DNA of 64,000 nucleotides from the IMG/VR virus record IMGVR_UViG_2706794668_000011. One strand, written 5' to 3'. The notes beneath the pieces are model-generated. The model worked only from the letters and a program-made list of their open reading frames with translations. It ran no database searches and was not told the DNA's origin. Source of the DNA: a virus. Its lineage: Duplodnaviria; Heunggongvirae; Uroviricota; Caudoviricetes. Positions 9,707 to 49,080 of the stretch are shown here, piece after piece (position 1 is the stretch's first letter; each line of letters starts with the position of its first letter). Position numbers and translations under genes: made by a program.

Positions 9707-10810
9707 ATGTCACTCCTTTTGAATCGTGAGCATACGAACGGTCAGGTAACAAACGCATCGTATGCAAAAGTTATTGAGACGGTGCTTAAAAGCGGCGTGC
9801 AGACTGATGATCGCACAGGCACTGGTACTTTAAGCACCTGCTACGTTCCCTCTTACTACATGCTTACTGGTGGGACTGTGCCGCTTATTTCTGGAAAGGC
9901 GGTAAATCTTAAGCCACTGCTTGTCGAACTTGAGTGGTATCTGAAAGGCACGGGCAACATCCAATTTCTTAAGGATAACGGCGTTAAGATTTGGGATGCA
10001 TGGGCCGATGAGAATGGCGATTTGGGGCCGGTTTACGGTAAGCAGTGGCGTCGATGGGAAGATACCCGCATCGTGAGCCATAGTGAATATCTGAGCAAGA
10101 TCGCTACTTTCCGTGAACGCGGGTACAAAGTCGAGGGATACCTGGGTATCAGTGAAGATCGCGTAGTGCTGTCCCGTGAAATCGATCAGCTACAGCGTAT
10201 TGTCGACACACTGCGCACGAACCCTACCGATCGTCGCATCATGCTTAACGCATGGAACGTAGGCGAGCTTGAGGATATGAAACTGCCACCTTGCCACTTT
10301 GTCTTCTCTTTGTGGAGTCGTGAGCTTGATTTTGAAACCCGTTTAACGATGGCAACTGACATTGGTCTTCAACACAGTCGCTTCGGTTATGAGTCTATCT
10401 ACACCAAGATGCTATACGATCTGGAGATGGACGGCAGTGTTACTGAAACTGAACTGGATGAACTTGGAATCCCCAAACGCATCCTCAACTCCTGCCTCGT
10501 ACAGCGTAGCGTAGACACTTTTGTTGGTATGCCATTCAATATTGCTGGCTATGGCATTCTCACTCATTTTCTCGCGAAGATTACGGGTCACATGGCCGGT
10601 GCATTTGTGCATTTTGGCTTTGACGTGCATTTGTACAACAACCACATGGAAGGTGTGTGTGAGCTAATGAAACGACAGGCTCCAGAGCATTCAGATCCGG
10701 TCGTTATTTTCCCTCATGAATGGTCTGAGCTGGATGATTTCAAATGGGACGATATTCTGATTCTTGGCTATGACCCTCTACCGTGGATCAAGGTTCCAGT
10801 GGCGGTGTGA
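9707..10810 (+). CDS. thyA: thymidylate synthase with two internal insertions
   Basis: 367 aa; DRTGTGT, ADENGDLGPVYGKQWR, AWNVGEL and catalytic LPPCH motifs shared with E. coli ThyA; ~40-aa and ~50-aa insertions relative to it. Confidence 0.9.
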   Translation: MSLLLNREHTNGQVTNASYAKVIETVLKSGVQTDDRTGTGTLSTCYVPSYYMLTGGTVPLISGKAVNLKPLLVELEWYLKGTGNIQFLKDNGVKIWDAWADENGDLGPVYGKQWRRWEDTRIVSHSEYLSKIATFRERGYKVEGYLGISEDRVVLSREIDQLQRIVDTLRTNPTDRRIMLNAWNVGELEDMKLPPCHFVFSLWSRELDFETRLTMATDIGLQHSRFGYESIYTKMLYDLEMDGSVTETELDELGIPKRILNSCLVQRSVDTFVGMPFNIAGYGILTHFLAKITGHMAGAFVHFGFDVHLYNNHMEGVCELMKRQAPEHSDPVVIFPHEWSELDDFKWDDILILGYDPLPWIKVPVAV

Positions 10811-10811
10811 T

Positions 10812-11225
10812 ATGGCAAGAGGTATGTATGTCTTATGCGAAATTGAAGGTGTGCTGGCAAATACCAGCCATCGTAAATCTGTACCTGACACGGATGCAGG
10901 CCAGCTCATTGCCGGTGATGAACTCATTTTCCCCACCAGCCGTATGTTGCGTGGTTTTGCTCGCTCAGGGGCTGAAGTGGTGCTTATCAGTAGCCGCTCT
11001 GAAACTCTTGAAGCGCCCACTAAACGATGGCTGAAAGATTTTGGCGTTGATTACGACTGGCTTCATCTCGTACCGAATGGCACCAGTTATGAGAAGCATA
11101 TTAAGCGCACATTAGCGGAGCATAAAGGCGATCTGCTTATCGCTGCGCTGGTGCACGATCCTCGACTCCGTGCCGCTTTAGCTGACTCTCATCATAGACC
11201 GGTCATCTATGAGGTGAGCAAATGA
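10812..11225 (+). CDS. hypothetical protein
   Basis: ATG directly after thyA stop; 3' end overlaps DHFR start; function not recognised. Confidence 0.45.
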   Translation: MARGMYVLCEIEGVLANTSHRKSVPDTDAGQLIAGDELIFPTSRMLRGFARSGAEVVLISSRSETLEAPTKRWLKDFGVDYDWLHLVPNGTSYEKHIKRTLAEHKGDLLIAALVHDPRLRAALADSHHRPVIYEVSK

Positions 11226-11698
11226 AGATGATAGCTGCTGTTGGCCGTAACTATGAGATCGGCATAGCGAACGAACTGCCCTGGCGTTGTTCTACCGATC
11301 TGAAGCTATTTAAGAGACTCACCAAAAACGCCACTGTCGTTATGGGGCGTAAAACGATGGAAAGTCTCAAACGCCCTCTTCCAGAGCGTCATAACCTCGT
11401 TTTGACGCGCTCTCATGGCTTTGTACCAAATGGATTCTACCCTGCTGGTGTGGATGATGTGTTGCGATTACCAGAGCCTGTGTGGGTGATTGGCGGGGAA
11501 CAAATTTACTCGCTATTCATGCCGCATGTTGAAGAGATTTGGCTCTCCCACATCGGCGTTGATGTGCCAAACGCCGATGCATTCTTCCCGGCAAGCATGA
11601 TGCGTAATTTAGGCTTTGTGCCTGTTGAAACAGTTTTTACCCAACGAGCCAGCGAGGAAGAGCCTGGCTTTTCGCAGATCGTATACAGAAGGTCGTAA
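11222..11698 (+). CDS. folA: dihydrofolate reductase
   Basis: 158 aa; pattern AAVGRNYEIG...LPW...VMGRKT...RPLPER...VIGG matches the DHFR fold and E. coli FolA. Confidence 0.9.
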   Translation: MKMIAAVGRNYEIGIANELPWRCSTDLKLFKRLTKNATVVMGRKTMESLKRPLPERHNLVLTRSHGFVPNGFYPAGVDDVLRLPEPVWVIGGEQIYSLFMPHVEEIWLSHIGVDVPNADAFFPASMMRNLGFVPVETVFTQRASEEEPGFSQIVYRRS

Positions 11699-15136: not shown

Positions 15137-15167
15137 TTTGTTCTGGCGTCTGTAATTAGCCTGCTTC

Positions 15168-15228
15168 TGTATATATATAAATAACTACATATTAATTATT
15201 AATATACGGAAGCAGGCTGTTTTGTATC
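15168..15228. repeat. long palindromic element, copy 1 (17-bp GC-clamped arms around an AT-rich loop)
   Basis: agcctgcttctgtatat ... atatacggaagcaggct; a near-identical arm sequence occurs at 40904-40959. Confidence 0.7.
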
Positions 15229-35834: not shown

Positions 35835-37394
35835 CTAATCTCGTTTCAGAACTCCAAAATCGAATGCGCCATCAATAGGCAATACACCTTCTGCAAAGCC
35901 AGGTGTGGTGTCGATGATGTGTTTTCGCTCATAAGAGTGAGACAACAGGTATTTGTTGCTAATGTCAATGAAATCAGTGATAAAACACACGTTTGCCTGA
36001 TTCTTCTTGGCTCGTAAGCCACGACCGACACGCTGCCTCATTTCAACTTCTGCTTTCCCACCACCAGCAAGAATGACCGCACCAACGCTTGGCACATCAA
36101 CACCGACATCCAGAATAGTCGAGCCTATTAAAACATCTATTTCTCCAGACGCTAAACTGTTCAGCTTTGCTTGCCTTGTCGCCTGGTTAGATTCCCCATA
36201 GATGAAGTCAACTCTAAGGCCGGACTCTTTCATCATTTCCATCAGGATTTGCCCGTGGCGTTTAAGGCGAACCAGAGTCATACAATTGAGAGAATGTTGC
36301 TTATAGAGCAATGCTTCGCGCACAATGGCCTCGTTACGTCCCAAATTATACACGATCCCCAACTGATAAGCCTTTTGGTAGGCGGTGCTCATACCAACTC
36401 TAAAATTGAGGTGTTTGTTGGCAAGTTCGGCCTTGATTCTGGCCTCGTCTGGCTTGTAGGCAACTTTATGATAAAGGAAGTACGGCTTTGCCAGAATGCC
36501 TCGATCAATCAGATACTTTTCTGTGACTTTAATTTCAATTCGCCCGGCCACCGCCATCAGGCGCATGTTGGCTTCCGTCGAATCCTTCATGAACGGCGTG
36601 GCTGTAAGCGCCAGACGATAGTCTGCGTTCACACATAATCTGGCGATGTCATAGAAATTTGAGCCTGAAGACTCATGCGCCTCTTCCAGAATAAGAAGAG
36701 AGACACTTGAAAGGAAGCGTTTCACCAACTCCCGACGTTTGAGGTGGTAGCTTTTCTTATCTGGTGTTGCATCGCGTGGTGGTTCTTCGAGGAAACTTGC
36801 AAGAGTTTGAACTGTAGCGACGTTGATATGTCGTGATACCTGGAACTCACCCGAGCCAATGACTCCAACCTTTTGGTCTTTTAACCACGGTTCGCCATTT
36901 TTGGCGCGGTAGTCGATGGATCTCTGGAAGTTTTCGGCCATTTGAAACATCAGAACAGAGCGGGTTGTTAAAAATAATGTCATTCGACCGATACGTGCAG
37001 CTGCTTTGCAGGCAACGTTAGATTTCCCGCCACCAGTAGCGATCTGCGCAATCATCATTCCCTCTCGAACCAGTGTTTCCACAGTCTGATCCTGATACGC
37101 ATAATCAGGATTGTATGGGAATGGGTTAACCGCCGGATTTGGTTTACCAAGCGCCGGGGCTTTGTCTTTGCGGATATGAACACATTTGATGCCCGCCTTG
37201 TTCAAATTAGCCGCCACGGGCTTGGCAAAGCCAGCAGGGAACGAGTTTTTGCTCCAGTTGAACATTGTGCTTGTGCCCTTCCAGTCGCCAGCCTCGACTT
37301 CGTAGCTCAACATTTGCTGCACCAGTTGCTTTACCTTGTCATCTGCGCCAGAAATAAGCGCATTTACTGCGTTAGATACAATCCGAACAGTCAT
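35835..37394 (-). CDS. superfamily-2 DNA/RNA helicase (DEAH-like)
   Basis: 519 aa; motif I ATGGGKS, motif II LEEAHE, motif III LTATPF, motif VI QRVGRGLR. Confidence 0.8.
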   Translation of the reverse strand: MTVRIVSNAVNALISGADDKVKQLVQQMLSYEVEAGDWKGTSTMFNWSKNSFPAGFAKPVAANLNKAGIKCVHIRKDKAPALGKPNPAVNPFPYNPDYAYQDQTVETLVREGMMIAQIATGGGKSNVACKAAARIGRMTLFLTTRSVLMFQMAENFQRSIDYRAKNGEPWLKDQKVGVIGSGEFQVSRHINVATVQTLASFLEEPPRDATPDKKSYHLKRRELVKRFLSSVSLLILEEAHESSGSNFYDIARLCVNADYRLALTATPFMKDSTEANMRLMAVAGRIEIKVTEKYLIDRGILAKPYFLYHKVAYKPDEARIKAELANKHLNFRVGMSTAYQKAYQLGIVYNLGRNEAIVREALLYKQHSLNCMTLVRLKRHGQILMEMMKESGLRVDFIYGESNQATRQAKLNSLASGEIDVLIGSTILDVGVDVPSVGAVILAGGGKAEVEMRQRVGRGLRAKKNQANVCFITDFIDISNKYLLSHSYERKHIIDTTPGFAEGVLPIDGAFDFGVLKRD

Positions 37395-37435
37395 AAACCT
37401 CTTTCCTTAGTGCCTTTTGTATGTTATTTGGCTAT

Positions 37436-37462
37436 TATAATAAGTAAGTGATTACTTAGTGG
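37436..37462. promoter_or_regulatory. motif B variant (tataataagtaagtgattacttagtgg) in divergent promoter region
   Basis: taagta/tactta inverted repeat between helicase and ParB-like gene starts. Confidence 0.4.
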
Positions 37463-37476
37463 ATTGTAGCAATAAA

Positions 37477-38157
37477 ATGGACGTAAAAATCACGATTTTG
37501 CAGGTTGATGTTGCCAACCTTCGCCCGAATACCTGGAACACCAATTCGGTTGGTGCGCAGAATTTCGAAAAACTGAAAGGTTCTATCGAAAAATTGGGCT
37601 TTTTTAAGCCAATTTTGGCTCGTGAACTTGAAGATGGATTTTTTGAAATCCTCGGCGGCGAACATCGCTGGCGTGCCGCTATTGAGCAAGGAATTTCAAC
37701 GGTTCCAGTGCTTTCTGTGGGCAAAATTAGCGATGTCGTAGCTAAACAGATGTCACTGGTGGACAACGAGCGATACGGTGAAGACGACCAAATCGCATTG
37801 CAACGCTTCATTGAAGAAATTCAGTCAGAACTTGACTATCAACTGTCTGAAATCGCCCCGTATGACGACGAAATCTCGATGGTTTTAGCAAAAGAGGCGG
37901 CAATCGACCTTGAAGCACTGGAGGCGTTGTCTCGTGGTAGTGATGAGCCTGTCGATACCGACAAACGAGAGAAAACCGAACGTGTGGGGGCGGAACATCA
38001 GACCATGCGCTTCAAAGTAACTTTCGATGCGTCAGATCGTGTTGCAGAAACCATAAAAAACATCATCAAAGAGCAGGCTATTAACACCGGTAATGAAATG
38101 GAGAACGCTGGTGAGGCTCTGGTGTGGCTGGTCGACTACTACAAGGAGCGTATGTAA
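37477..38157 (+). CDS. ParB/Srx-fold protein 1
   Basis: N-terminal ParB-type motif LGGEHRWRAA; start taken at first ATG (the track ORF starts at GTG 37459). Confidence 0.6.
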   Translation: MDVKITILQVDVANLRPNTWNTNSVGAQNFEKLKGSIEKLGFFKPILARELEDGFFEILGGEHRWRAAIEQGISTVPVLSVGKISDVVAKQMSLVDNERYGEDDQIALQRFIEEIQSELDYQLSEIAPYDDEISMVLAKEAAIDLEALEALSRGSDEPVDTDKREKTERVGAEHQTMRFKVTFDASDRVAETIKNIIKEQAINTGNEMENAGEALVWLVDYYKERM

Positions 38158-38825
38158 TGACCAAAAAGTTTGAAATCGTATATCGCGACCCGGCAGATCT
38201 TATTCCCTATGAGATGAATGCCAAAAAGCATGATGAACAGCAGATCAGAGATCTGGCCGCAGCCATTAAAAAGCGCGGATTTGACCAGCCAATTACGGTC
38301 GATAAGAACGACGTAATTATTACTGGCCACGGCCGTCGTGAGGCTGCAATTTTTGCTGGACTTGAGCGTGTACCGGTTATTGTTCGCGATGATCTCAGTG
38401 ATGACGAGGTTCGTGCGAAGCGCCTTGAAGATAACCGACTTGCCAGCATTGATTACGATGCAATTAAGCTACAGAAAGAGCTTGAGTCGCTTGTTCTGGA
38501 CGATATCGAGGTTTTCGGCTTCGAAGAGCGTGAGTTGAATGTTCTCGTTGGCAGTATGACAGAAGAAATGGACACCGACTCGCTAGTTATCGATCTTGGC
38601 GAAGAAACTAAACGACAGAAGGATGAACACACCGAGATCAGTCGTGAAGTTGCAGCGGAAGAAGTACGTGTTGTCGACGTATTGGGCTTTAAAACGCTTC
38701 CTGCTGGCTCTGCCATTGTTGTTGGTGATTTGCTTGCCCACATGGAAGAAATGACGGGAGAAAGCGGGGTAGACGCATTTGTGGCATATGCGGAGAAAAT
38801 CTCTTCCGGGGAGATGGCTGCATGA
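38157..38825 (+). CDS. ParB/Srx-fold protein 2 (tandem paralogue)
   Basis: ParB-type motif ITGHGRREAA; RBS aaggag; ATG overlaps upstream stop. Confidence 0.65.
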   Translation: MTKKFEIVYRDPADLIPYEMNAKKHDEQQIRDLAAAIKKRGFDQPITVDKNDVIITGHGRREAAIFAGLERVPVIVRDDLSDDEVRAKRLEDNRLASIDYDAIKLQKELESLVLDDIEVFGFEERELNVLVGSMTEEMDTDSLVIDLGEETKRQKDEHTEISREVAAEEVRVVDVLGFKTLPAGSAIVVGDLLAHMEEMTGESGVDAFVAYAEKISSGEMAA

Positions 38826-39460
38826 GCAAATACATCATCAACGTATCGTTTCAGACACGCGTAAATAAAACCACGCGCACGTTGGAAATCGCTGAGTCGT
38901 TCGGGCTTGGCCTGGACGAAAAAGAGTGGACGCTTTACGACAATCTGGAGCTGGAAGTGAAGCAGGGCGATGTGGTGTACATCACCGGCCAATCCGGTTC
39001 CGGCAAATCCGTTGTGCTGCGCGAGTTGCAACGACAGATGAAGGATGAAGGGCTGTCTGTAGCCTCCATCGATGATTTTACCTTCGATAATGAGGTTAAC
39101 GTCATCGATCAGTTGGGCAAAACGACCAGTGATGCGCTTGGGTTGTTATCTATGGCTGGTCTGAACGATGCATATCTGTTTGTTCGCAAGCCTTCTGAAA
39201 TGTCAGACGGCCAGAAATATCGTCTCAAGATTGCCAAACTGATTGAGTCAGGCGCTAAAGTATGGGCTGCTGACGAGTTCGGCGCTGTTCTAGACCGTGT
39301 AACCGCTCAGGTTGTGGCGTCTAACCTCCAGCGTGCCGCTCGAAAGGTTGGTGCGACGGTAATGGTGGCGACGACTCACGAAGACCTGAAGAACGCGCTG
39401 CGCCCGGATATGCAGATCACCAAGCACTACAAAGAACGCGTGAAGGTGGAATATGCCTGA
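38822..39460 (+). CDS. ABC-type ATPase (nucleotide-binding-domain fold only)
   Basis: 212 aa; Walker A GQSGSGKS, signature-like SDGQKYR, Walker B VWAADEFG, H-loop TTHED; overlaps upstream stop. Confidence 0.6.
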   Translation: MSKYIINVSFQTRVNKTTRTLEIAESFGLGLDEKEWTLYDNLELEVKQGDVVYITGQSGSGKSVVLRELQRQMKDEGLSVASIDDFTFDNEVNVIDQLGKTTSDALGLLSMAGLNDAYLFVRKPSEMSDGQKYRLKIAKLIESGAKVWAADEFGAVLDRVTAQVVASNLQRAARKVGATVMVATTHEDLKNALRPDMQITKHYKERVKVEYA

Positions 39461-39707
39461 TTTGAAGATCGTAGAGCTGAAGCCATCGAAAGAGACTGAT
39501 AACAACAACGTGGAAGTCATCCGCCTGCTGGAAGAAGCACTTCAGCACGCCAGAGAAGGAAAAAGCCAGAGCCTGGCGCTGTTGATGATCAACAACGACG
39601 GCAGTGTTCTTGATTGCTGGCATAACGGCGGGCGCCCGTATGTCATGGTAGGGGCGATGGAGTCTCTTCGCCTGGATTTCATCAATGCCAATATCGAGCG
39701 CAGGTGA
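39453..39707 (+). CDS. hypothetical small protein
   Basis: 84-aa ORF overlapping upstream stop. Confidence 0.45.
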   Translation: MPDLKIVELKPSKETDNNNVEVIRLLEEALQHAREGKSQSLALLMINNDGSVLDCWHNGGRPYVMVGAMESLRLDFINANIERR

Positions 39708-39712
39708 TCGAC

Positions 39713-40603
39713 ATGGCAGATATCATCATCAAACGCTACCGCCCTGAAGAGTTTCCGCGTCATCTGGACTTTCTGGAGCGAATGACTGTCACAAAGGGAA
39801 CTGTAGAGGACTGGCACGCTCTTAAGTCGCTTCACTACAAAACAGACGGCAAACCTTTCGCGCCAACTTACTATCGCTGCGAACTTGATGACCGTCTGGT
39901 GGGCGTCGTGGTTATGGCTTACCCGAAACTACTGTTGGCACCTCGCCACCGCATGTTTCCTAAGTTGAAACCAACCACTAATACCACCGTAGCTAACCAG
40001 TACTGGGGTCGGTACGTGAATAACAACTTTGCGGTGATCAGTCGCTCAGTTGTGGATACTCAGTATCGTGGCGTAGGCGTCTCTTATCGAATGATTAACC
40101 TGGTTAGCAGGATGCATGACCGGCCAATCATTGAGATCCAGTCCTCGATGAGCAAATACAATCCCTTCGCCATGAAAGCAGGGTTTAAGTTCATCCGCCC
40201 TGAGCGACCGAAGAGCTATGAAAGTGCACTGCGTGTATTCCAGCGCCATTTCCGTTCCGACCCTGGTGATAACGAGGCGATCGTCAAAGAGTTGTTCGCA
40301 ATGAGCGAGTCTCGTCGTCGCCGTGCACTGCGTGATCTGGTGGCGGACTACCACAAGAACAGTTCCCTGGCAAAAGCTGGGCGGAATCGTGGCACGACGA
40401 TTCAGGACATTGCCGACAGTCTGGTGGACGAGGCCAGCATTGTGAAGCTGCTCAAGGACATTCACAACCTGAGCTTTACGTCTCCGTTGTATGGTGTGTA
40501 CCGAAACCCTGACTTTGGTCGTCGACTGCCTGACACGCTGCCACTGCTGGCATTCGACAAACAACCTTTGGATAAACCGTTAGAAATTGCTTTACCGGCA
40601 TAA
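39713..40603 (+). CDS. GNAT-like acyltransferase-fold protein with C-terminal extension
   Basis: 296 aa from ATG after aggtga; QYRGVGVSYRMI resembles the GNAT acyl-CoA-binding motif. Confidence 0.45.
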   Translation: MADIIIKRYRPEEFPRHLDFLERMTVTKGTVEDWHALKSLHYKTDGKPFAPTYYRCELDDRLVGVVVMAYPKLLLAPRHRMFPKLKPTTNTTVANQYWGRYVNNNFAVISRSVVDTQYRGVGVSYRMINLVSRMHDRPIIEIQSSMSKYNPFAMKAGFKFIRPERPKSYESALRVFQRHFRSDPGDNEAIVKELFAMSESRRRRALRDLVADYHKNSSLAKAGRNRGTTIQDIADSLVDEASIVKLLKDIHNLSFTSPLYGVYRNPDFGRRLPDTLPLLAFDKQPLDKPLEIALPA

Positions 40604-40612
40604 GGATTTGCC

Positions 40613-40879
40613 ATGACGTTAACCGACAAACAAAAGGACATCATCAAAACGCTCAATCTCGGTTATGAGCGAGGTCATCTACTTGATCTGGACGAATTGC
40701 TTGAAGTTTTGCCGTACAAGACAACCAAGCAAAGCATCCAGTTCTCAATTCGCGCTCTGATAAAAAAGGGGCTGGTGGAGAAAGGACATACGCGCCAACG
40801 CAGTGACAATCGCTATCACCGCCGGACTCTTGGGTTAACCACTTTAGGTCGAGCCAAAGCGAAGTTACTGGTGATGTAA
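40613..40879 (+). CDS. small winged-helix-like DNA-binding protein
   Basis: 88 aa, RBS aagga; basic C-terminal half; helix-turn-helix character inferred only. Confidence 0.4.
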   Translation: MTLTDKQKDIIKTLNLGYERGHLLDLDELLEVLPYKTTKQSIQFSIRALIKKGLVEKGHTRQRSDNRYHRRTLGLTTLGRAKAKLLVM

Positions 40880-40903
40880 TCGGTCTGGGAGCTTATTTAA
40901 AGA

Positions 40904-40959
40904 CCTGCTTCTGTATATATAAATAATAAGTAACTTATTAAATATATACAGAAGCAGGC
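40904..40959. repeat. long palindromic element, copy 2 (perfect 17-bp arms cctgcttctgtatatat)
   Basis: Perfect inverted repeat around a 22-nt AT-rich loop; same arm sequence as 15168-15228; sits between the wHTH gene and terS. Confidence 0.7.
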
Positions 40960-40993
40960 TTAGTAAGACATGCCCAGACCTAATTAAACACCC

Positions 40994-41010
40994 CAGAAAA
41001 CAAGTTGGTT
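40994..41010. promoter_or_regulatory. motif A copy (cagaaaacaagttggtt)
   Basis: First of two copies upstream of terS. Confidence 0.5.
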
Positions 41011-41075: not shown

Positions 41076-41708
41076 ATGACGGTCGAAAAAGACGAGGTAA
41101 AAACTCGCCTGACACCAGCGGAGTGGGCCGAAGCTGAAGCCAAATGGACGTCAGGCGAATATACACTCTCAAAGCTGGAGGAAGAGTACGGCATTCGTCG
41201 TGAAACACTCTCCAGACATTTCAAAAAGCGAGGATTAGAGAAAGGCGCGGACTCTGTTGGGAAGATGGTTCGTGAGTCTCTTAAATCTGACGCAGAGCTT
41301 CGCGCTAAAGCCCGTGCGGAAAAGATAGAAGAACGTCGTACACGTTATGACGGCTGGGCGTATGCGTTGGGGCAGATGGTGATGGTCGAAGTCACTACGG
41401 CCAAACGTGAGGGTAAGCCTTTAGGGGCGATTGAGGATTCTCTCAAGAGCTTACAGAGAGCCAGTAATACTCTTGCAAAATGCTTTGAAGTTTCGTCCAA
41501 AGCATTGGGCATGGATCATGCGGAAAATGACGAGGAAGAAATTCCGAACCTGGTATTTGGTGAGCTTACGCCTTCCCAGGTGGCGAAATTACGTCAGGAA
41601 GACGACGAGCCTGAAATCATCGATGACGAATTGCTTGAGACGTTGGAAGAAGAAGCTCTAAGCGAATTTGATGCGACAGATGATGGAAGTGAAGGGGAGG
41701 ACGAATAA
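41076..41708 (+). CDS. terminase small subunit (putative)
   Basis: 210 aa; N-terminal HTH-like segment, acidic C-terminus; immediately precedes the large terminase. Confidence 0.65.
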   Translation: MTVEKDEVKTRLTPAEWAEAEAKWTSGEYTLSKLEEEYGIRRETLSRHFKKRGLEKGADSVGKMVRESLKSDAELRAKARAEKIEERRTRYDGWAYALGQMVMVEVTTAKREGKPLGAIEDSLKSLQRASNTLAKCFEVSSKALGMDHAENDEEEIPNLVFGELTPSQVAKLRQEDDEPEIIDDELLETLEEEALSEFDATDDGSEGEDE

Positions 41709-42964
41709 TGGCAATCCCGTCCTCGCTCAGTCTTGTGCAACTGCATTCTGGACAGATGAAAGTCTTCCAGTCTCCGCATCGATTTAAAGTTGTTTGTGCT
41801 GGTCGACGCTGGGGAAAATCCCGGTTGTCGATCTCCACTATTATTCGTGCGGCGGCAAAGGAAAAAAAGCAAAGAGTCTGGTATGTCGCTCCTACTTACC
41901 AGATGGCTCGCCAGATTTTGTGGGACGATCTACAGGAAGTTCTGCCTCGTAAGTGGGTTAGGAAAAAGAACGACACCACGATGACAATCGTGTTGAAGAA
42001 CGGTTCGGAGATCGCCCTCAAAGGTGCTGATAAGCCTGACACTCTGCGCGGCGTAGCGTTGCATTTTGTAGTGCTTGATGAATTTCAGGATATGAAGGCT
42101 GACACCTGGTACAAGGTGTTACGACCTACTCTTTCATCGACACGCGGCGGTGCACTGATCATTGGTACGCCAAAAGGCTTCTCGGAATTTCACAAACTGT
42201 GGACTATAGGCCAGAACGTAGAGCTGCAAAGAAAGGGACAGTGGAAGAGCTGGCAGTTTGTAACTGCCGATTCTCCGTTTGTACCTACGGCGGAAATTGA
42301 AGCTGCTAAGAACGATATGGACCCGAAATCGTTCGCTCAGGAGTACCTGGCGAGCTTTGAGAACATGTCCGGGCGCGTTTACTACCCGTTCGATCGTAAC
42401 GTGCATGTAAAACCGCTTCAGTTCAACCCTCGGTTGCCTATATGGGTAGGGCAGGACTTCAACATTGACCCGATGTCTTCAGTAATTTTGCAACCTCAGC
42501 CAAATGGTGAGCTATGGGCAATTGATGAATTGGTGCTCTTTTCCTCTAACACGGCAGAAGTTTGTGATGAGCTTGAGAGACGCTTCTGGCGCTGGAAATC
42601 ACAGGTAACGGTATTTCCAGATCCGGCAGGTGCTTATCGCCAACATGCTCGTGGGGAGTCTGACGTAGACATATTCAAAGAGAAGGGATTCTTACGTGTC
42701 GATTATTCGAAAAAGCACCCGCCAATTGCGGATCGTGTTAATGCTGTTAACCGAATGCTGATGTCCGCATCTGGAGATATCCGGCTGTATATCGATCCGA
42801 AGTGCAAGCATTTGATTGATTCACTGGAAAAAGTCATCTACAAGCCTGGAACACGAGATATGGATAAGACAGGTGGCATTGAGCATAGTGCAGACGCATT
42901 GGGCTATCCAGTACATCGTAGGTATCCAGTAAAAAATCGTGTTATTCTTGGTGGTTCTCGATAG
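41708..42964 (+). CDS. terminase large subunit
   Basis: 418 aa; Walker A CAGRRWGKS, Walker B VVLDEF, C-terminal nuclease-like acidic motifs. Confidence 0.8.
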   Translation: MAIPSSLSLVQLHSGQMKVFQSPHRFKVVCAGRRWGKSRLSISTIIRAAAKEKKQRVWYVAPTYQMARQILWDDLQEVLPRKWVRKKNDTTMTIVLKNGSEIALKGADKPDTLRGVALHFVVLDEFQDMKADTWYKVLRPTLSSTRGGALIIGTPKGFSEFHKLWTIGQNVELQRKGQWKSWQFVTADSPFVPTAEIEAAKNDMDPKSFAQEYLASFENMSGRVYYPFDRNVHVKPLQFNPRLPIWVGQDFNIDPMSSVILQPQPNGELWAIDELVLFSSNTAEVCDELERRFWRWKSQVTVFPDPAGAYRQHARGESDVDIFKEKGFLRVDYSKKHPPIADRVNAVNRMLMSASGDIRLYIDPKCKHLIDSLEKVIYKPGTRDMDKTGGIEHSADALGYPVHRRYPVKNRVILGGSR

Positions 42965-49053: not shown

Positions 49054-49080
49054 AATAGGTAAGTATATACTTAAATATAG
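49054..49080. promoter_or_regulatory. motif B copy (aataggtaagtatatacttaaatatag)
   Basis: 4 nt after upstream stop, 44 nt before the major tail gene. Confidence 0.5.

What the first reader, a model, noticed from the sequence alone, without database searches (positions are those of the whole stretch)
37436..40879. Co-oriented cluster of two tandem ParB/Srx-like genes, an ABC-type ATPase, a small protein, a GNAT-like protein and a wHTH protein immediately upstream of the terminase
Six tightly packed, mostly overlapping genes (37477-40879) look translationally coupled. Two paralogous ParB-fold proteins carry the GxxRxxA-type motif, followed by a 212-aa protein with a complete ABC ATPase motif set but no transporter domain, then a protein with a GNAT acyl-CoA-binding motif. 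ParB-like proteins near terminase genes are common in phages, but this particular combination with an ABC ATPase and an acyltransferase-fold protein is not a module I can name. It could be a partition or packaging-site system, a DNA modification cassette (GNAT-fold enzymes such as Mu Mom modify DNA), or an anti-defence module. It is divergently transcribed from an SF2 helicase.
Basis: partly seen in the sequence, partly recalled or inferred. Interest (0 to 1): 0.6.

Follow-up and report, generated by a model that had tools for sequence, protein, structure and literature searches.

The report
ParB plus split ABC–GNAT phage module
The six-gene cluster is real and deeply conserved, and it is the phage-plasmid version of a widespread but never tested viral module (ParB-like proteins plus an ATP-driven acyltransferase beside the DNA-packaging genes) that has been predicted to add an unknown chemical group to phage DNA.

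Summary

The gene order is invariant in 167 related viral loci, down to about 41% identity. The ABC and GNAT-like genes are the split form of a single-chain ABC~GNAT protein found in many unrelated phages. That protein again sits beside a ParB-like gene and/or the terminase, for example in Gordonia, Leptospira, Pasteurella and Streptococcus phages and in Planctomycetota prophages. The family includes Tenacibaculum phage pT24, the published example of a "GNAT coupled with an ABC ATPase" predicted to acylate a DNA base (Iyer et al. 2013, 2021). No experiment exists.

The best reading is a late, ParB-assisted, ATP-powered DNA-base acyl or aminoacyl modification made before packaging (confidence 0.45). 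A partition role is rejected. Packaging-accessory and protein-acetylation roles remain possible. This is a new member of a predicted kind, and it is directly testable in E. coli.

The parts
35835..37394 (-). Divergently transcribed SF2 (UvsW-like) helicase. It is a syntenic neighbour; it is not shown to be part of the module.
   Evidence: It hits Pfam ResIII, DEAD and Helicase_C and is annotated UvsW helicase in phage Cyrano. It sits at the same position in 147 related loci.
37435..37458 (+). TATAAT hexamer followed by an 18-bp inverted repeat, TAAGTAAGTGATTACTTA. It lies in the 82-bp divergent intergenic region, 19 nt upstream of the ParB1 ATG. This is a possible regulated promoter and operator (inferred).
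   Evidence: The sequence was read directly. The pattern TAAGTA-N(0-8)-TACTTA occurs twice in the window against 0 expected. The consensus promoter scan did not call a promoter here.
37477..38157 (+). ParB1: a ParB/Srx (ParB-CTPase fold) N-domain, an acidic linker and a small C-terminal domain. It has no HTH.
   Evidence: It hits Pfam ParB_N at 3e-13 (residues 9-97) and phrog_723 at 1e-78. It carries the GEHRWRA motif and a D-N-E-R box.
38157..38825 (+). ParB2: a paralogue of ParB1 with the same architecture. Its N-domain is of the type found fused to phage DNA methyltransferases.
   Evidence: It hits Pfam ParB_N at 1e-8, phrog_930 at 1e-112, phrog_498 (ParB-MTase) at 1e-31 and PADLOC MTase_II at 3e-17. 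In the model, the N-domain has pLDDT of about 85-92, the linker (100-165) is poorly predicted and the C-terminal helices (172-221) have pLDDT of about 80-93. Foldseek places it on ParB-CDP, ParB-CTPgS and Noc. Invariant residues are N21, K23, H25, G57-H-G-R60 and D92-N93.
38822..39460 (+). Stand-alone ABC-type nucleotide-binding domain (212 aa). It corresponds to the N-terminal half of single-chain ABC~GNAT proteins.
   Evidence: It hits Pfam ABC_tran at 5e-13, and all motifs are located. It matches the fused-family profile A2 at 9.7e-87. It is 97-99% identical in amino acids to SSU5 and Klebsiella relatives, at 86-91% nucleotide identity.
39453..39707 (+). 84-aa accessory ORF (phrog_796) inserted between the two halves of the enzyme. 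It is dispensable and variable.
   Evidence: It is present in about half of the 87 close loci and has no detectable homologue in the 80 diverged loci. It is absent from phage Cyrano. Other genes occupy the same slot in L003.
39713..40603 (+). GNAT-fold acyltransferase-like protein (296 aa). The GNAT domain spans roughly residues 20-165 and is followed by a helical/beta C-terminal domain. It corresponds to the C-terminal half of ABC~GNAT proteins.
40613..40879 (+). 88-aa probable winged-helix protein (phrog_900). It always follows the GNAT-like gene in this phage lineage.
   Evidence: Homologues occur in 165 loci, always at this position in the two groups related to this window. It gives weak wHTH hits.
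40882..40981 (.). About 100 nt of near-perfect palindrome ending the cluster, with core CCTGCTTCTGTATATAT / ATATATACAGAAGCAGG. It may be a bidirectional terminator or a protein-binding site.
   Evidence: The hairpin has dG -26.7 and z -8.9; the arms were mapped. The core is conserved in 37 distinct relatives, and SSU5 shows a two-sided compensatory change (T>C with A>G). A second copy lies at 15160-15216.
41076..42964 (+). terS-like (41076-41708) and terL (41708-42964) genes. These are the packaging genes the module is linked to across lineages; they are context rather than part of the module.
   Evidence: They hit phrog_867, Terminase_6N and Terminase_6C. terL lies adjacent to ABC~GNAT in several unrelated lineages.

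Best explanation
The cluster is a late-expressed DNA modification module. Its catalytic core is a split ABC~GNAT enzyme. The 212-aa ABC domain would dimerise on ATP. The 296-aa GNAT-fold protein would then transfer an acyl group (from acyl-CoA) or an aminoacyl group (from charged tRNA, as Mom does) onto a base in double-stranded phage DNA.

The two ParB-fold proteins have an NTP-binding N-domain, a linker and a C-terminal domain, but no DNA-binding HTH. They would act as NTP-gated activators or DNA tethers for the enzyme. ParB-like proteins do this for phage T-dioxygenases, and DpdB does it for DpdA. The small winged-helix protein would be a regulator or a specificity factor.

The module is encoded directly upstream of terS/terL, so it would mark replicated DNA just before packaging. 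The virion genome would then enter the next host protected from restriction or other DNA-targeting defences.

Shown here: the folds, the intact motifs, the homology to the fused family, the synteny and the co-occurrence. Inferred: the substrate (DNA), the donor, the role of the ParB proteins, the timing and the protective function.
For: 1. ABC and GNAT-like are two halves of one enzyme. Hundreds of 440-500-aa proteins carry both domains in that order, and the window proteins match the fused profile at 1e-86 and 4e-44.
2. The family includes Tenacibaculum phage pT24 gp038 (hhalign probability 99.8%, E 2e-27). Iyer et al. cite pT24 as the example of a GNAT coupled with an ABC ATPase predicted to acylate a DNA nucleobase (PMC7824862).
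3. ParB co-occurs across unrelated phages and in different gene orders:
   - helicase<, ParB, ParB, ABC, GNAT, wHTH, terS, terL in 167 SSU5/Nickie/RHEph10-type loci;
   - ABC, GNAT, ParB, terL in Planctomycetota prophages;
   - ParB, ABC~GNAT, then terminase in Gordonia Axumite, Leptospira LE4 and Pasteurella Pmp13, and ParB, ABC in S. pyogenes 315.4.
4. In the Mu-like phage phiE255, ABC~GNAT sits after the tail-fibre genes. From my own knowledge, Mu carries mom in that place.
5. A PurN/Fmt-type formyltransferase follows ABC~GNAT in phiE255, in a Porphyromonas phage and in Gordonia Axumite. This suggests the adduct carries an amine.
6. An ASCH domain gene lies in the 315.4 block.
7. There are precedents. 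ParB-like proteins with an NBD and a CTD but no DBD are required activators of phage T-dioxygenases, and those pathways co-occur with terminases (PMC13229309). The ParB-CTPase fold is fused to MTases and to an acetyltransferase and binds CTP, ATP or GTP (PMC12704722). Mom is a GNAT that acylates adenine in dsDNA (PMC13219725).
8. ABC and GNAT-like are the most constrained genes of the block (96-99% amino-acid identity at 82-91% nucleotide identity).
Against: - There is no experimental evidence for any member of the family, and no modified base has been reported for SSU5-type elements in the papers I could search.
- The ABC domain resembles transporter-type NBDs more than the DNA-binding SMC/Rad50/RecF classes.
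- Terminase adjacency fits a packaging role equally well.
- The original description (Iyer et al. 2013) could not be read here. Family membership therefore rests on the 2021 citation and on homology to its one named example.
- The fusions to PolB and GINS could be gene-calling artefacts.
Confidence: 0.45

Rival explanations
1. The module is a packaging accessory. The ParB-like proteins and the ABC/GNAT pair would help terS/terL recognise, prepare or cut the packaging site, or clear or resolve DNA for packaging. The GNAT domain might acetylate a packaging or head protein.
For: terL lies adjacent to the module in at least five unrelated lineages and in three different gene orders. A conserved palindrome sits between the cluster and terS, and the SSU5 and Cyrano GenBank records are cut at its centre. 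In one large group of metagenomic viruses, the fused gene follows terL and often ends the contig.
Against: - In phiE255 and in Porphyromonas phages, ABC~GNAT is far from the terminase and is paired with a formyltransferase.
- In other viruses it lies next to PolA, PolB or Pol III alpha.
- Post-replicative DNA-modification genes are themselves commonly terminase-linked (PMC13229309), so adjacency does not discriminate between the two readings.
- The palindrome has a second copy 25 kb away, between unrelated genes. That fits a terminator or repeat element better than a unique pac site.
- Most tailed phages package DNA without such genes.
Confidence: 0.17
2. The module is a host-takeover or regulatory acetyltransferase. 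The ABC~GNAT enzyme would acetylate a protein (such as RNA polymerase, a nucleoid protein or a replisome or SMC-type factor) or a small molecule such as a polyamine. The ParB-like proteins would serve as NTP switches.
Against: The recurrent ParB partner, the placement equivalent to mom, the formyltransferase and ASCH neighbours and the late, packaging-side position all point to DNA rather than to an early host-takeover function. No early-gene context was seen in any lineage.
Confidence: 0.2
3. The module is a plasmid partition or centromere system for the plasmid prophage, with the ParB-like proteins as centromere binders and the ABC protein as the motor.
For: The element is a low-copy plasmid prophage, and two ParB-family genes are present. 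PHROG and GenBank label them 'ParB-like partition protein'.
Against: - Neither ParB protein hits an HTH DNA-binding domain, and there is no ParA.
- The ATPase is an ABC domain, not a ParA/Walker-type protein.
- The same block is a core feature of Nickievirus, Rhizobium and Stenotrophomonas phages and of integrated prophages.
- A separate small AAA ATPase gene followed by a 117-aa gene, possibly a real partition locus, lies elsewhere on the identical plasmid. Its identity was not tested.
Confidence: 0.03

Closest known systems
ABC ATPase-GNAT predicted DNA-base acylation system (Iyer, Zhang, Burroughs & Aravind 2013; Iyer et al. 2021; database label COG2401 / 'MK0520, ABC-type ATPase fused to a predicted acetyltransferase domain')
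   Same: It has the same two domains in the same order. The homology is detectable: window proteins match the fused profile at 1e-86 and 4e-44, and the profile matches the named example pT24 at 99.8% probability. It also occurs in a phage context.
   Different: Here the enzyme is split into two genes, with a variable gene between them, and the GNAT half carries an extra C-terminal domain of about 130 aa. It comes with two ParB paralogues, a small wHTH gene and a fixed helicase/terminase frame. The published function is a prediction only.
Phage Mu Mom (a GNAT that transfers glycine from Gly-tRNA to N6 of adenine in dsDNA; Nat Commun 2026, PMC13219725)
   Same: Both are GNAT-fold proteins. Mom is expressed late in the lytic cycle (PMC13219725); the SSU5-type module is encoded on the packaging side of the genome. 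In a Mu-like phage (phiE255), an ABC~GNAT gene occupies the genomic position that mom holds in Mu.
ParB-dependent phage T-dioxygenases (5mYOX with a cognate ParB; PNAS 2026, PMC13229309)
   Same: The partner is a ParB-fold protein with an N-terminal NTP-binding domain and a C-terminal domain but no DNA-binding HTH. It is encoded next to a post-replicative DNA-modifying enzyme and is often near terminase genes.
   Different: The enzyme there is an Fe/2OG dioxygenase, not an ABC~GNAT. One ParB is used there, whereas two paralogues are present here. No activation has been shown for this module.
DpdA/DpdB 7-deazaguanine DNA modification (PMC10164549)
   Same: A ParB-like ATPase (DpdB) works with a base-modifying enzyme on DNA. 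The existence of this paper was confirmed; the mechanism is stated from my own knowledge.
   Different: The chemistry is different (transglycosylation of preQ0), and there is no GNAT and no ABC domain.
ParB-methyltransferase fusions of phages and plasmids (phrog_498; PMC12704722)
   Same: The ParB2 N-domain belongs to this subtype (1e-31 to phrog_498; 3e-17 to a PADLOC MTase_II model). These fusions typically sit upstream of terS.
   Different: No methyltransferase domain is present here. The catalytic partner is a separate ABC/GNAT pair.
TmcA / NAT10 (ATPase plus a GNAT that acetylates cytidine N4 in tRNA)
   Same: An NTPase domain is coupled to a GNAT that acylates an exocyclic amine of a nucleic-acid base. 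This makes it a mechanistic analogy for an ATP-driven acyltransferase.
   Different: The ATPase there is a helicase-type P-loop, not an ABC domain. The substrate is RNA. No homology was tested beyond the shared GNAT fold.

Membership tests
ABC ATPase-GNAT (COG2401-type) predicted DNA-modification enzymes | An ABC-type nucleotide-binding domain with intact catalytic motifs | tested here: met
   Pfam ABC_tran at 5e-13. Walker A 56-63, Q97, SDGQK 128-132, Walker B 147-153, D-loop 155-158 and H186 are all present.
ABC ATPase-GNAT (COG2401-type) predicted DNA-modification enzymes | A GNAT-fold domain directly C-terminal to the ABC domain (here: encoded by the next conserved gene) | tested here: met
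ABC ATPase-GNAT (COG2401-type) predicted DNA-modification enzymes | Sequence homology to the published exemplar (Tenacibaculum phage pT24) | tested here: met
   The fused-family profile A2 matches pT24 gp038 at probability 99.8%, E 2e-27, extending into the start of the GNAT domain. The window ABC and GNAT-like proteins match A2 at 9.7e-87 and 4.1e-44. The link is transitive, not direct.
ABC ATPase-GNAT (COG2401-type) predicted DNA-modification enzymes | Acyl modification of a DNA base | not testable with these tools
   This is a published prediction only (PMC7824862). The 10 full-text searches found no experimental paper.
ParB-CTPase-fold activators of DNA-modifying enzymes (5mYOX-ParB type) | An N-terminal ParB/Srx nucleotide-binding fold with conserved P-motif residues | tested here: met
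   Pfam ParB_N hits for both proteins. Foldseek places ParB2 on CDP/CTPgS-bound ParB. The GHGR and DN(R) boxes are invariant in 26 homologues.
ParB-CTPase-fold activators of DNA-modifying enzymes (5mYOX-ParB type) | No central HTH DNA-binding domain, but a C-terminal domain is retained | tested here: inconclusive
   No HTH family hit was found in Pfam or NCBIfam. The model shows a low-confidence linker and then a confident two-helix C-terminal unit. Dimerisation, and absence of DNA binding, cannot be shown computationally here.
ParB-CTPase-fold activators of DNA-modifying enzymes (5mYOX-ParB type) | The partner enzyme requires the ParB protein for activity | not testable with these tools
   Only genomic co-occurrence is available.
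Canonical ParABS partition system | An adjacent ParA (deviant Walker A) ATPase and a ParB with a centromere-binding HTH | tested here: not met
   The adjacent ATPase is an ABC domain, and its CbiA/ParA hit is only E 0.0013, below the cut-off. No HTH is detected in ParB1 or ParB2.
Canonical ParABS partition system | Restricted to replicons that need segregation | tested here: not met
   The same block occurs in Nickievirus, Rhizobium and Stenotrophomonas phages and in chromosomal prophages.
Mom family | Specific sequence or structure relationship to Mom beyond the generic GNAT fold | tested here: not met
ABC transporter | A partner membrane permease, or a fused transmembrane domain | tested here: not met
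   None of the neighbouring genes is a permease. The partner in fused relatives is a GNAT domain. The 'ABC transporter' labels in GenBank and PHROGs are misnomers.
Known anti-phage defence systems (PADLOC) | Significant full-length match to a defence-system component | tested here: not met
   Only generic P-loop, ParB-domain and helicase matches were found.

The most novel reading that the evidence does not exclude
SSU5-type phage-plasmids are common in clinical Escherichia, Klebsiella, Salmonella, Shigella and Yersinia. They, and many unrelated phages, may carry a still undiscovered acyl or aminoacyl DNA base modification. A new kind of machine would install it: an ATP-driven ABC~GNAT transferase gated by ParB-fold NTPases. 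In some lineages a formyltransferase would process the adduct further, giving a DNA chemistry not yet described.
Probability: 0.35. Interest if true: 0.8.

Novelty: new member of a known kind. Interest (0 to 1): 0.5.

Why it matters
The ABC~GNAT family has been a published prediction since 2013, with no chemistry and no experiment behind it. This window puts a complete, highly conserved copy, together with its likely partners, on an element that grows in laboratory E. coli and Salmonella. Examples are SSU5, Cyrano and PhiR41_1, the last on MG1655.

That makes the question directly testable. One can ask which base is modified, with what group and from which donor. One can also ask whether ParB-fold proteins are general activators of DNA-modifying enzymes.

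If the modification is real, it would affect several things: restriction and defence evasion by a very widespread family of phage-plasmids, sequencing and cloning of their DNA, and the catalogue of natural DNA chemistries. If it is not real, the module is still a conserved, unexplained partner of the packaging genes in many phages.

Tried and rejected
- PADLOC, NCBIfam and Pfam gave no specific family for the GNAT-like, 84-aa or 88-aa proteins.
- A sequence search of the PDB with the GNAT-like protein found nothing.
- The AFDB Foldseek library was unavailable, so no annotated AlphaFold relatives could be checked.
- Iyer et al. 2013 and Krishnan et al. 2020 are not held in the paper library. 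The original definition of the family could not be read.
- Literature searches for COG2401, for the database label and for ABC-GNAT variants found nothing beyond the 2021 review.
- Partition was considered and rejected (see the rival explanations).
- A tRNA link was considered, because Nickievirus has tRNA genes next to the helicase. The window has no tRNA genes.
- A formyltransferase partner, seen in three other lineages, was searched for in the window and not found.
- No further ParB-like or ABC~GNAT copies exist in the window.
- The 84-aa ORF has no homologues outside close relatives, so it was set aside as an accessory insertion.
- The 80 'terL-ABC~GNAT' metagenomic loci proved to be essentially one virus lineage: their neighbouring genes fall into shared clusters. 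They count as one independent observation, not 53.

Full report
**What the window is.** The region 37400-41000 is 100% identical to several Shigella sonnei plasmids of about 108 kb, for example pMHMC-002 (NZ_CP053753.1). It is 98-99% identical to E. coli phage-plasmids and to phages Cyrano, PhiR41_1 and CMS-2020a, 86% to Salmonella phage SSU5 and about 82% to Klebsiella relatives. It matches 777 PLSDB plasmids from Klebsiella, Escherichia, Enterobacter, Yersinia, Salmonella and other genera, nearly all typed non-mobilizable. The window is therefore an SSU5-type phage-plasmid.

**The observation.** All six genes are present, co-oriented and tightly packed.

| Gene | Coordinates (+ strand) |
|---|---|
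| ParB1 | 37477-38157 |
| ParB2 | 38157-38825 |
| ABC | 38822-39460 |
| 84-aa ORF | 39453-39707 |
| GNAT-like | 39713-40603 |
| 88-aa ORF | 40613-40879 |

- The junctions are overlaps of 1, 4 and 8 nt, followed by gaps of 5 and 9 nt.
- A 197-nt spacer follows the cluster. After it come a terS-like gene (phrog_867, with an N-terminal HTH), terL and the portal gene.
- Upstream, across an 82-bp gap, lies a divergent SF2 helicase, annotated UvsW in Cyrano.
- Every gene matches a PHROG family strongly, at E 1e-45 to 1e-165.

**The domain calls.**
- *ParB proteins.* Both have the Pfam ParB_N domain. They are paralogues (33% identity over the N-domain, E 5e-10) and both carry GxxRxxA.
- *ParB2 structure.* A 26-sequence alignment shows invariant NAKxH, GHGR and DN boxes. 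The AlphaFold model has a confident N-domain, a poorly predicted acidic linker and a confident C-terminal helical pair. Foldseek puts the N-domain on CDP- and CTPgS-bound ParB, Noc and KorB. Neither protein hits an HTH domain family.
- *ABC protein.* It has every ABC motif and no membrane partner.
- *88-aa protein.* It gives only weak winged-helix hits.

**ABC and GNAT-like are one enzyme, split.** A profile of the GNAT-like family was searched against 1.8 billion representative proteins. It found 878 relatives. Many are 440-500 aa long, with an ABC domain in front of the GNAT-like region. The window's ABC and GNAT-like proteins match a profile of these fused proteins at 9.7e-87 and 4.1e-44.

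GenBank and JGI annotators had already labelled relatives 'ABC-type ATPase fused to a predicted acetyltransferase domain' (MK0520/COG2401).

The slot between the two halves is variable. The 84-aa ORF is present in about half of the 87 close loci, is absent from Cyrano, and is replaced by other genes in an Ectothiorhodospira prophage.

**Conservation and co-occurrence.** In 87 close loci and 80 diverged IMG/VR loci, the order '<helicase ParB ParB ABC [84-aa] GNAT-like wHTH terS terL portal' is invariant wherever the contig allows it to be seen. The GNAT-like protein in these loci goes down to about 41% identity. The same order holds in Pseudomonas phage nickie. GNAT-like homologues were also found in Rhizobium RHEph10-type, Stenotrophomonas and Xanthomonas phages of 106-122 kb. 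ABC and GNAT-like are the most constrained genes.

Outside this lineage the same partnership recurs in other gene orders.

| Element | Arrangement |
|---|---|
| Planctomycetota prophages | ABC, GNAT, ParB, small gene, terL |
| Gordonia phage Axumite | ParB (gene 1), ABC~GNAT (gene 2), formyltransferase homologue (gene 3, annotated as a tRNA methyltransferase), terminase (gene 4) |
| Leptospira LE4 | ParB-like, ABC~GNAT, three small genes, terL |
| Pasteurella Pmp13 | ParB-like, ABC~GNAT, terS, terL |
| S. pyogenes prophage 315.4 | ParB_N, ABC, small gene, ASCH, x, terL |
| Metagenomic virus lineage related to sequences in Bathyarchaeia MAGs | terL, then ABC~GNAT; no ParB |
| Other viruses | ABC~GNAT next to PolB, PolA or Pol III alpha, or apparently fused to PolB or a Gins51 C-domain |
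| Mu-like Burkholderia phage phiE255; Porphyromonas phages | ABC~GNAT plus a PurN/Fmt-type formyltransferase after the tail genes |

The position in phiE255 and the Porphyromonas phages is, from my own knowledge, where Mu carries mom.

**What is known.** Iyer et al. [quoted passage not shown] They cite their 2013 NAR paper and give Tenacibaculum phage pT24 as the example. pT24 gp038 aligns to the fused-family profile at 99.8% probability, so the window's enzyme belongs to that family. I could not read the 2013 paper, and I found no experimental work on the family.

Three recent papers supply precedents.
- Phage T-dioxygenases require a ParB-like activator that has an NTP-binding domain and a C-terminal domain but no DNA-binding domain. 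Those pathways co-occur with ParB genes (27%) and terminases (19%) (PMC13229309).
- The ParB-CTPase fold is widespread on mobile elements. It is fused to methyltransferases and to an acetyltransferase, and it binds CTP, ATP or GTP (PMC12704722).
- Mom is a GNAT that transfers glycine from Gly-tRNA to adenine N6 in dsDNA (PMC13219725).

**Most likely mechanism (confidence 0.45).** The cluster is read as a late-acting, ParB-assisted, ATP-powered DNA base modification module.
- ATP-driven dimerisation of the ABC domains would position the GNAT domains on DNA.
- The GNAT domain would transfer an acyl or aminoacyl group to a base.
- The recurrent formyltransferase partner in three lineages hints that the adduct carries an amine.
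- The two ParB paralogues would activate the enzyme or tether it to DNA.
- DNA would be marked before terS/terL package it.

Only the folds, motifs, homology and gene linkage are shown. The substrate, donor, timing and benefit are inferred.

**Rivals.**
- *Packaging accessory (0.17).* This fits the terminase linkage. It does not fit the terminase-distant cassettes or the conserved catalytic GNAT motifs.
- *Protein or small-molecule acetylation (0.20).* The fold alone cannot exclude it.
- *Partition (0.03).* It is rejected: no HTH, no ParA, and the block is present in phages with no plasmid stage on record. A separate small AAA ATPase gene pair, possibly the real partition locus, lies elsewhere on the plasmid; its identity was not tested.

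**Side observations.**
- A palindrome of about 100 nt ends the cluster (40882-40981, z -8.9). It is conserved, shows a two-sided compensatory change in SSU5, and has a second copy at 15160-15216. The SSU5 and Cyrano records are cut at its centre.
- An 18-bp inverted repeat follows a TATAAT hexamer just upstream of ParB1.

**Verdict.** The finding is real and is a genuine functional module. It is not unnamed: it is a split, ParB-duplicated member of a computationally predicted and experimentally untouched DNA-modification family. A specialist would not be greatly surprised. Even so, the chemistry has been open for over a decade, and this element makes it testable in E. coli.

Noticed in passing
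window 40882-40981 and 15160-15216: A near-perfect palindrome of about 100 nt (core CCTGCTTCYGTATAT...ATATACRGAAGCAGG; hairpin z -8.9) lies between the 88-aa gene and terS. A second copy lies 25 kb away, between two + strand ORFs that were not examined. SSU5 shows a two-sided compensatory change, and some relatives have T opposite G. The SSU5 and Cyrano GenBank records start and end at its centre. It could be a terminator, a repeat element or a protein-binding site.
   Followed up: partly
window 37435-37458: A TATAAT hexamer is followed by an 18-bp inverted repeat (TAAGTAAGTGATTACTTA), 19 nt before the ParB1 start, in the divergent helicase/ParB1 intergenic region. It may be an operator controlling the cluster. 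A related site, TAAGTATATACTTA, lies at 49060-49073.
   Followed up: partly
window 39453-39707; L226 (Cyrano); L003:6961-7999: The gap between the ABC and GNAT-like genes is an insertion hot spot. The 84-aa ORF is present in about half of close relatives and is missing in Cyrano. An Ectothiorhodospira prophage has three other genes there (a Phage_gp49_66 domain, a 96-aa ORF and a RyR domain).
   Followed up: partly
L085-L164 (IMG/VR), L165-L172 (Bathyarchaeia MAG contigs): In one metagenomic virus lineage, the fused ABC~GNAT gene directly follows terL, and many contigs end exactly at or within its 3' end. This suggests a fixed genome terminus or an assembly break there.
   Followed up: partly
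proteins P0173, P0204, P0198, P0164, P0154; loci L133, L145, L087: ABC~GNAT appears fused to family B DNA polymerase and to a Gins51 C-terminal domain. One copy has an intein with LAGLIDADG inside the ABC domain, and one has a TFIIB repeat at the C-terminus. In other viruses it is adjacent to PolB, PolA or Pol III alpha. These may be real replisome links or gene-calling read-throughs.
   Followed up: no
L314:3426-5158 (phiE255 gp29-gp30), L316:3393-4996 (Porphyromonas phage), L311:603-2452 (Gordonia Axumite genes 2-3): ABC~GNAT is followed by a PurN/Fmt-type formyltransferase in three unrelated phages. Axumite gene 3, annotated as a tRNA methyltransferase, is a homologue of phiE255 gp30 (E 3e-44). 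In the Mu-like phiE255 the pair sits after the tail-fibre genes. No such gene is present in the window.
   Followed up: partly
L312:4981-5358 (S. pyogenes prophage 315.4): An ASCH (PUA-like) domain gene lies between the ParB/ABC genes and the terminase. From my recollection of the abstract of Iyer et al. 2013 (not readable here), ASCH domains have been proposed as readers of modified bases.
   Followed up: no
window 9707-10810 and 11222-11698: An unusually long (367 aa) ORF has the same length as the gene annotated as thymidylate synthase on the near-identical plasmid, and lies near an ORF of the same length as the annotated dihydrofolate reductase. The element also carries nrdAB and, on the near-identical plasmid outside this window, its own DnaE, primase, DnaB-like helicase and ligase. 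Whether the long ThyA-like protein is a canonical thymidylate synthase was not checked.
   Followed up: no
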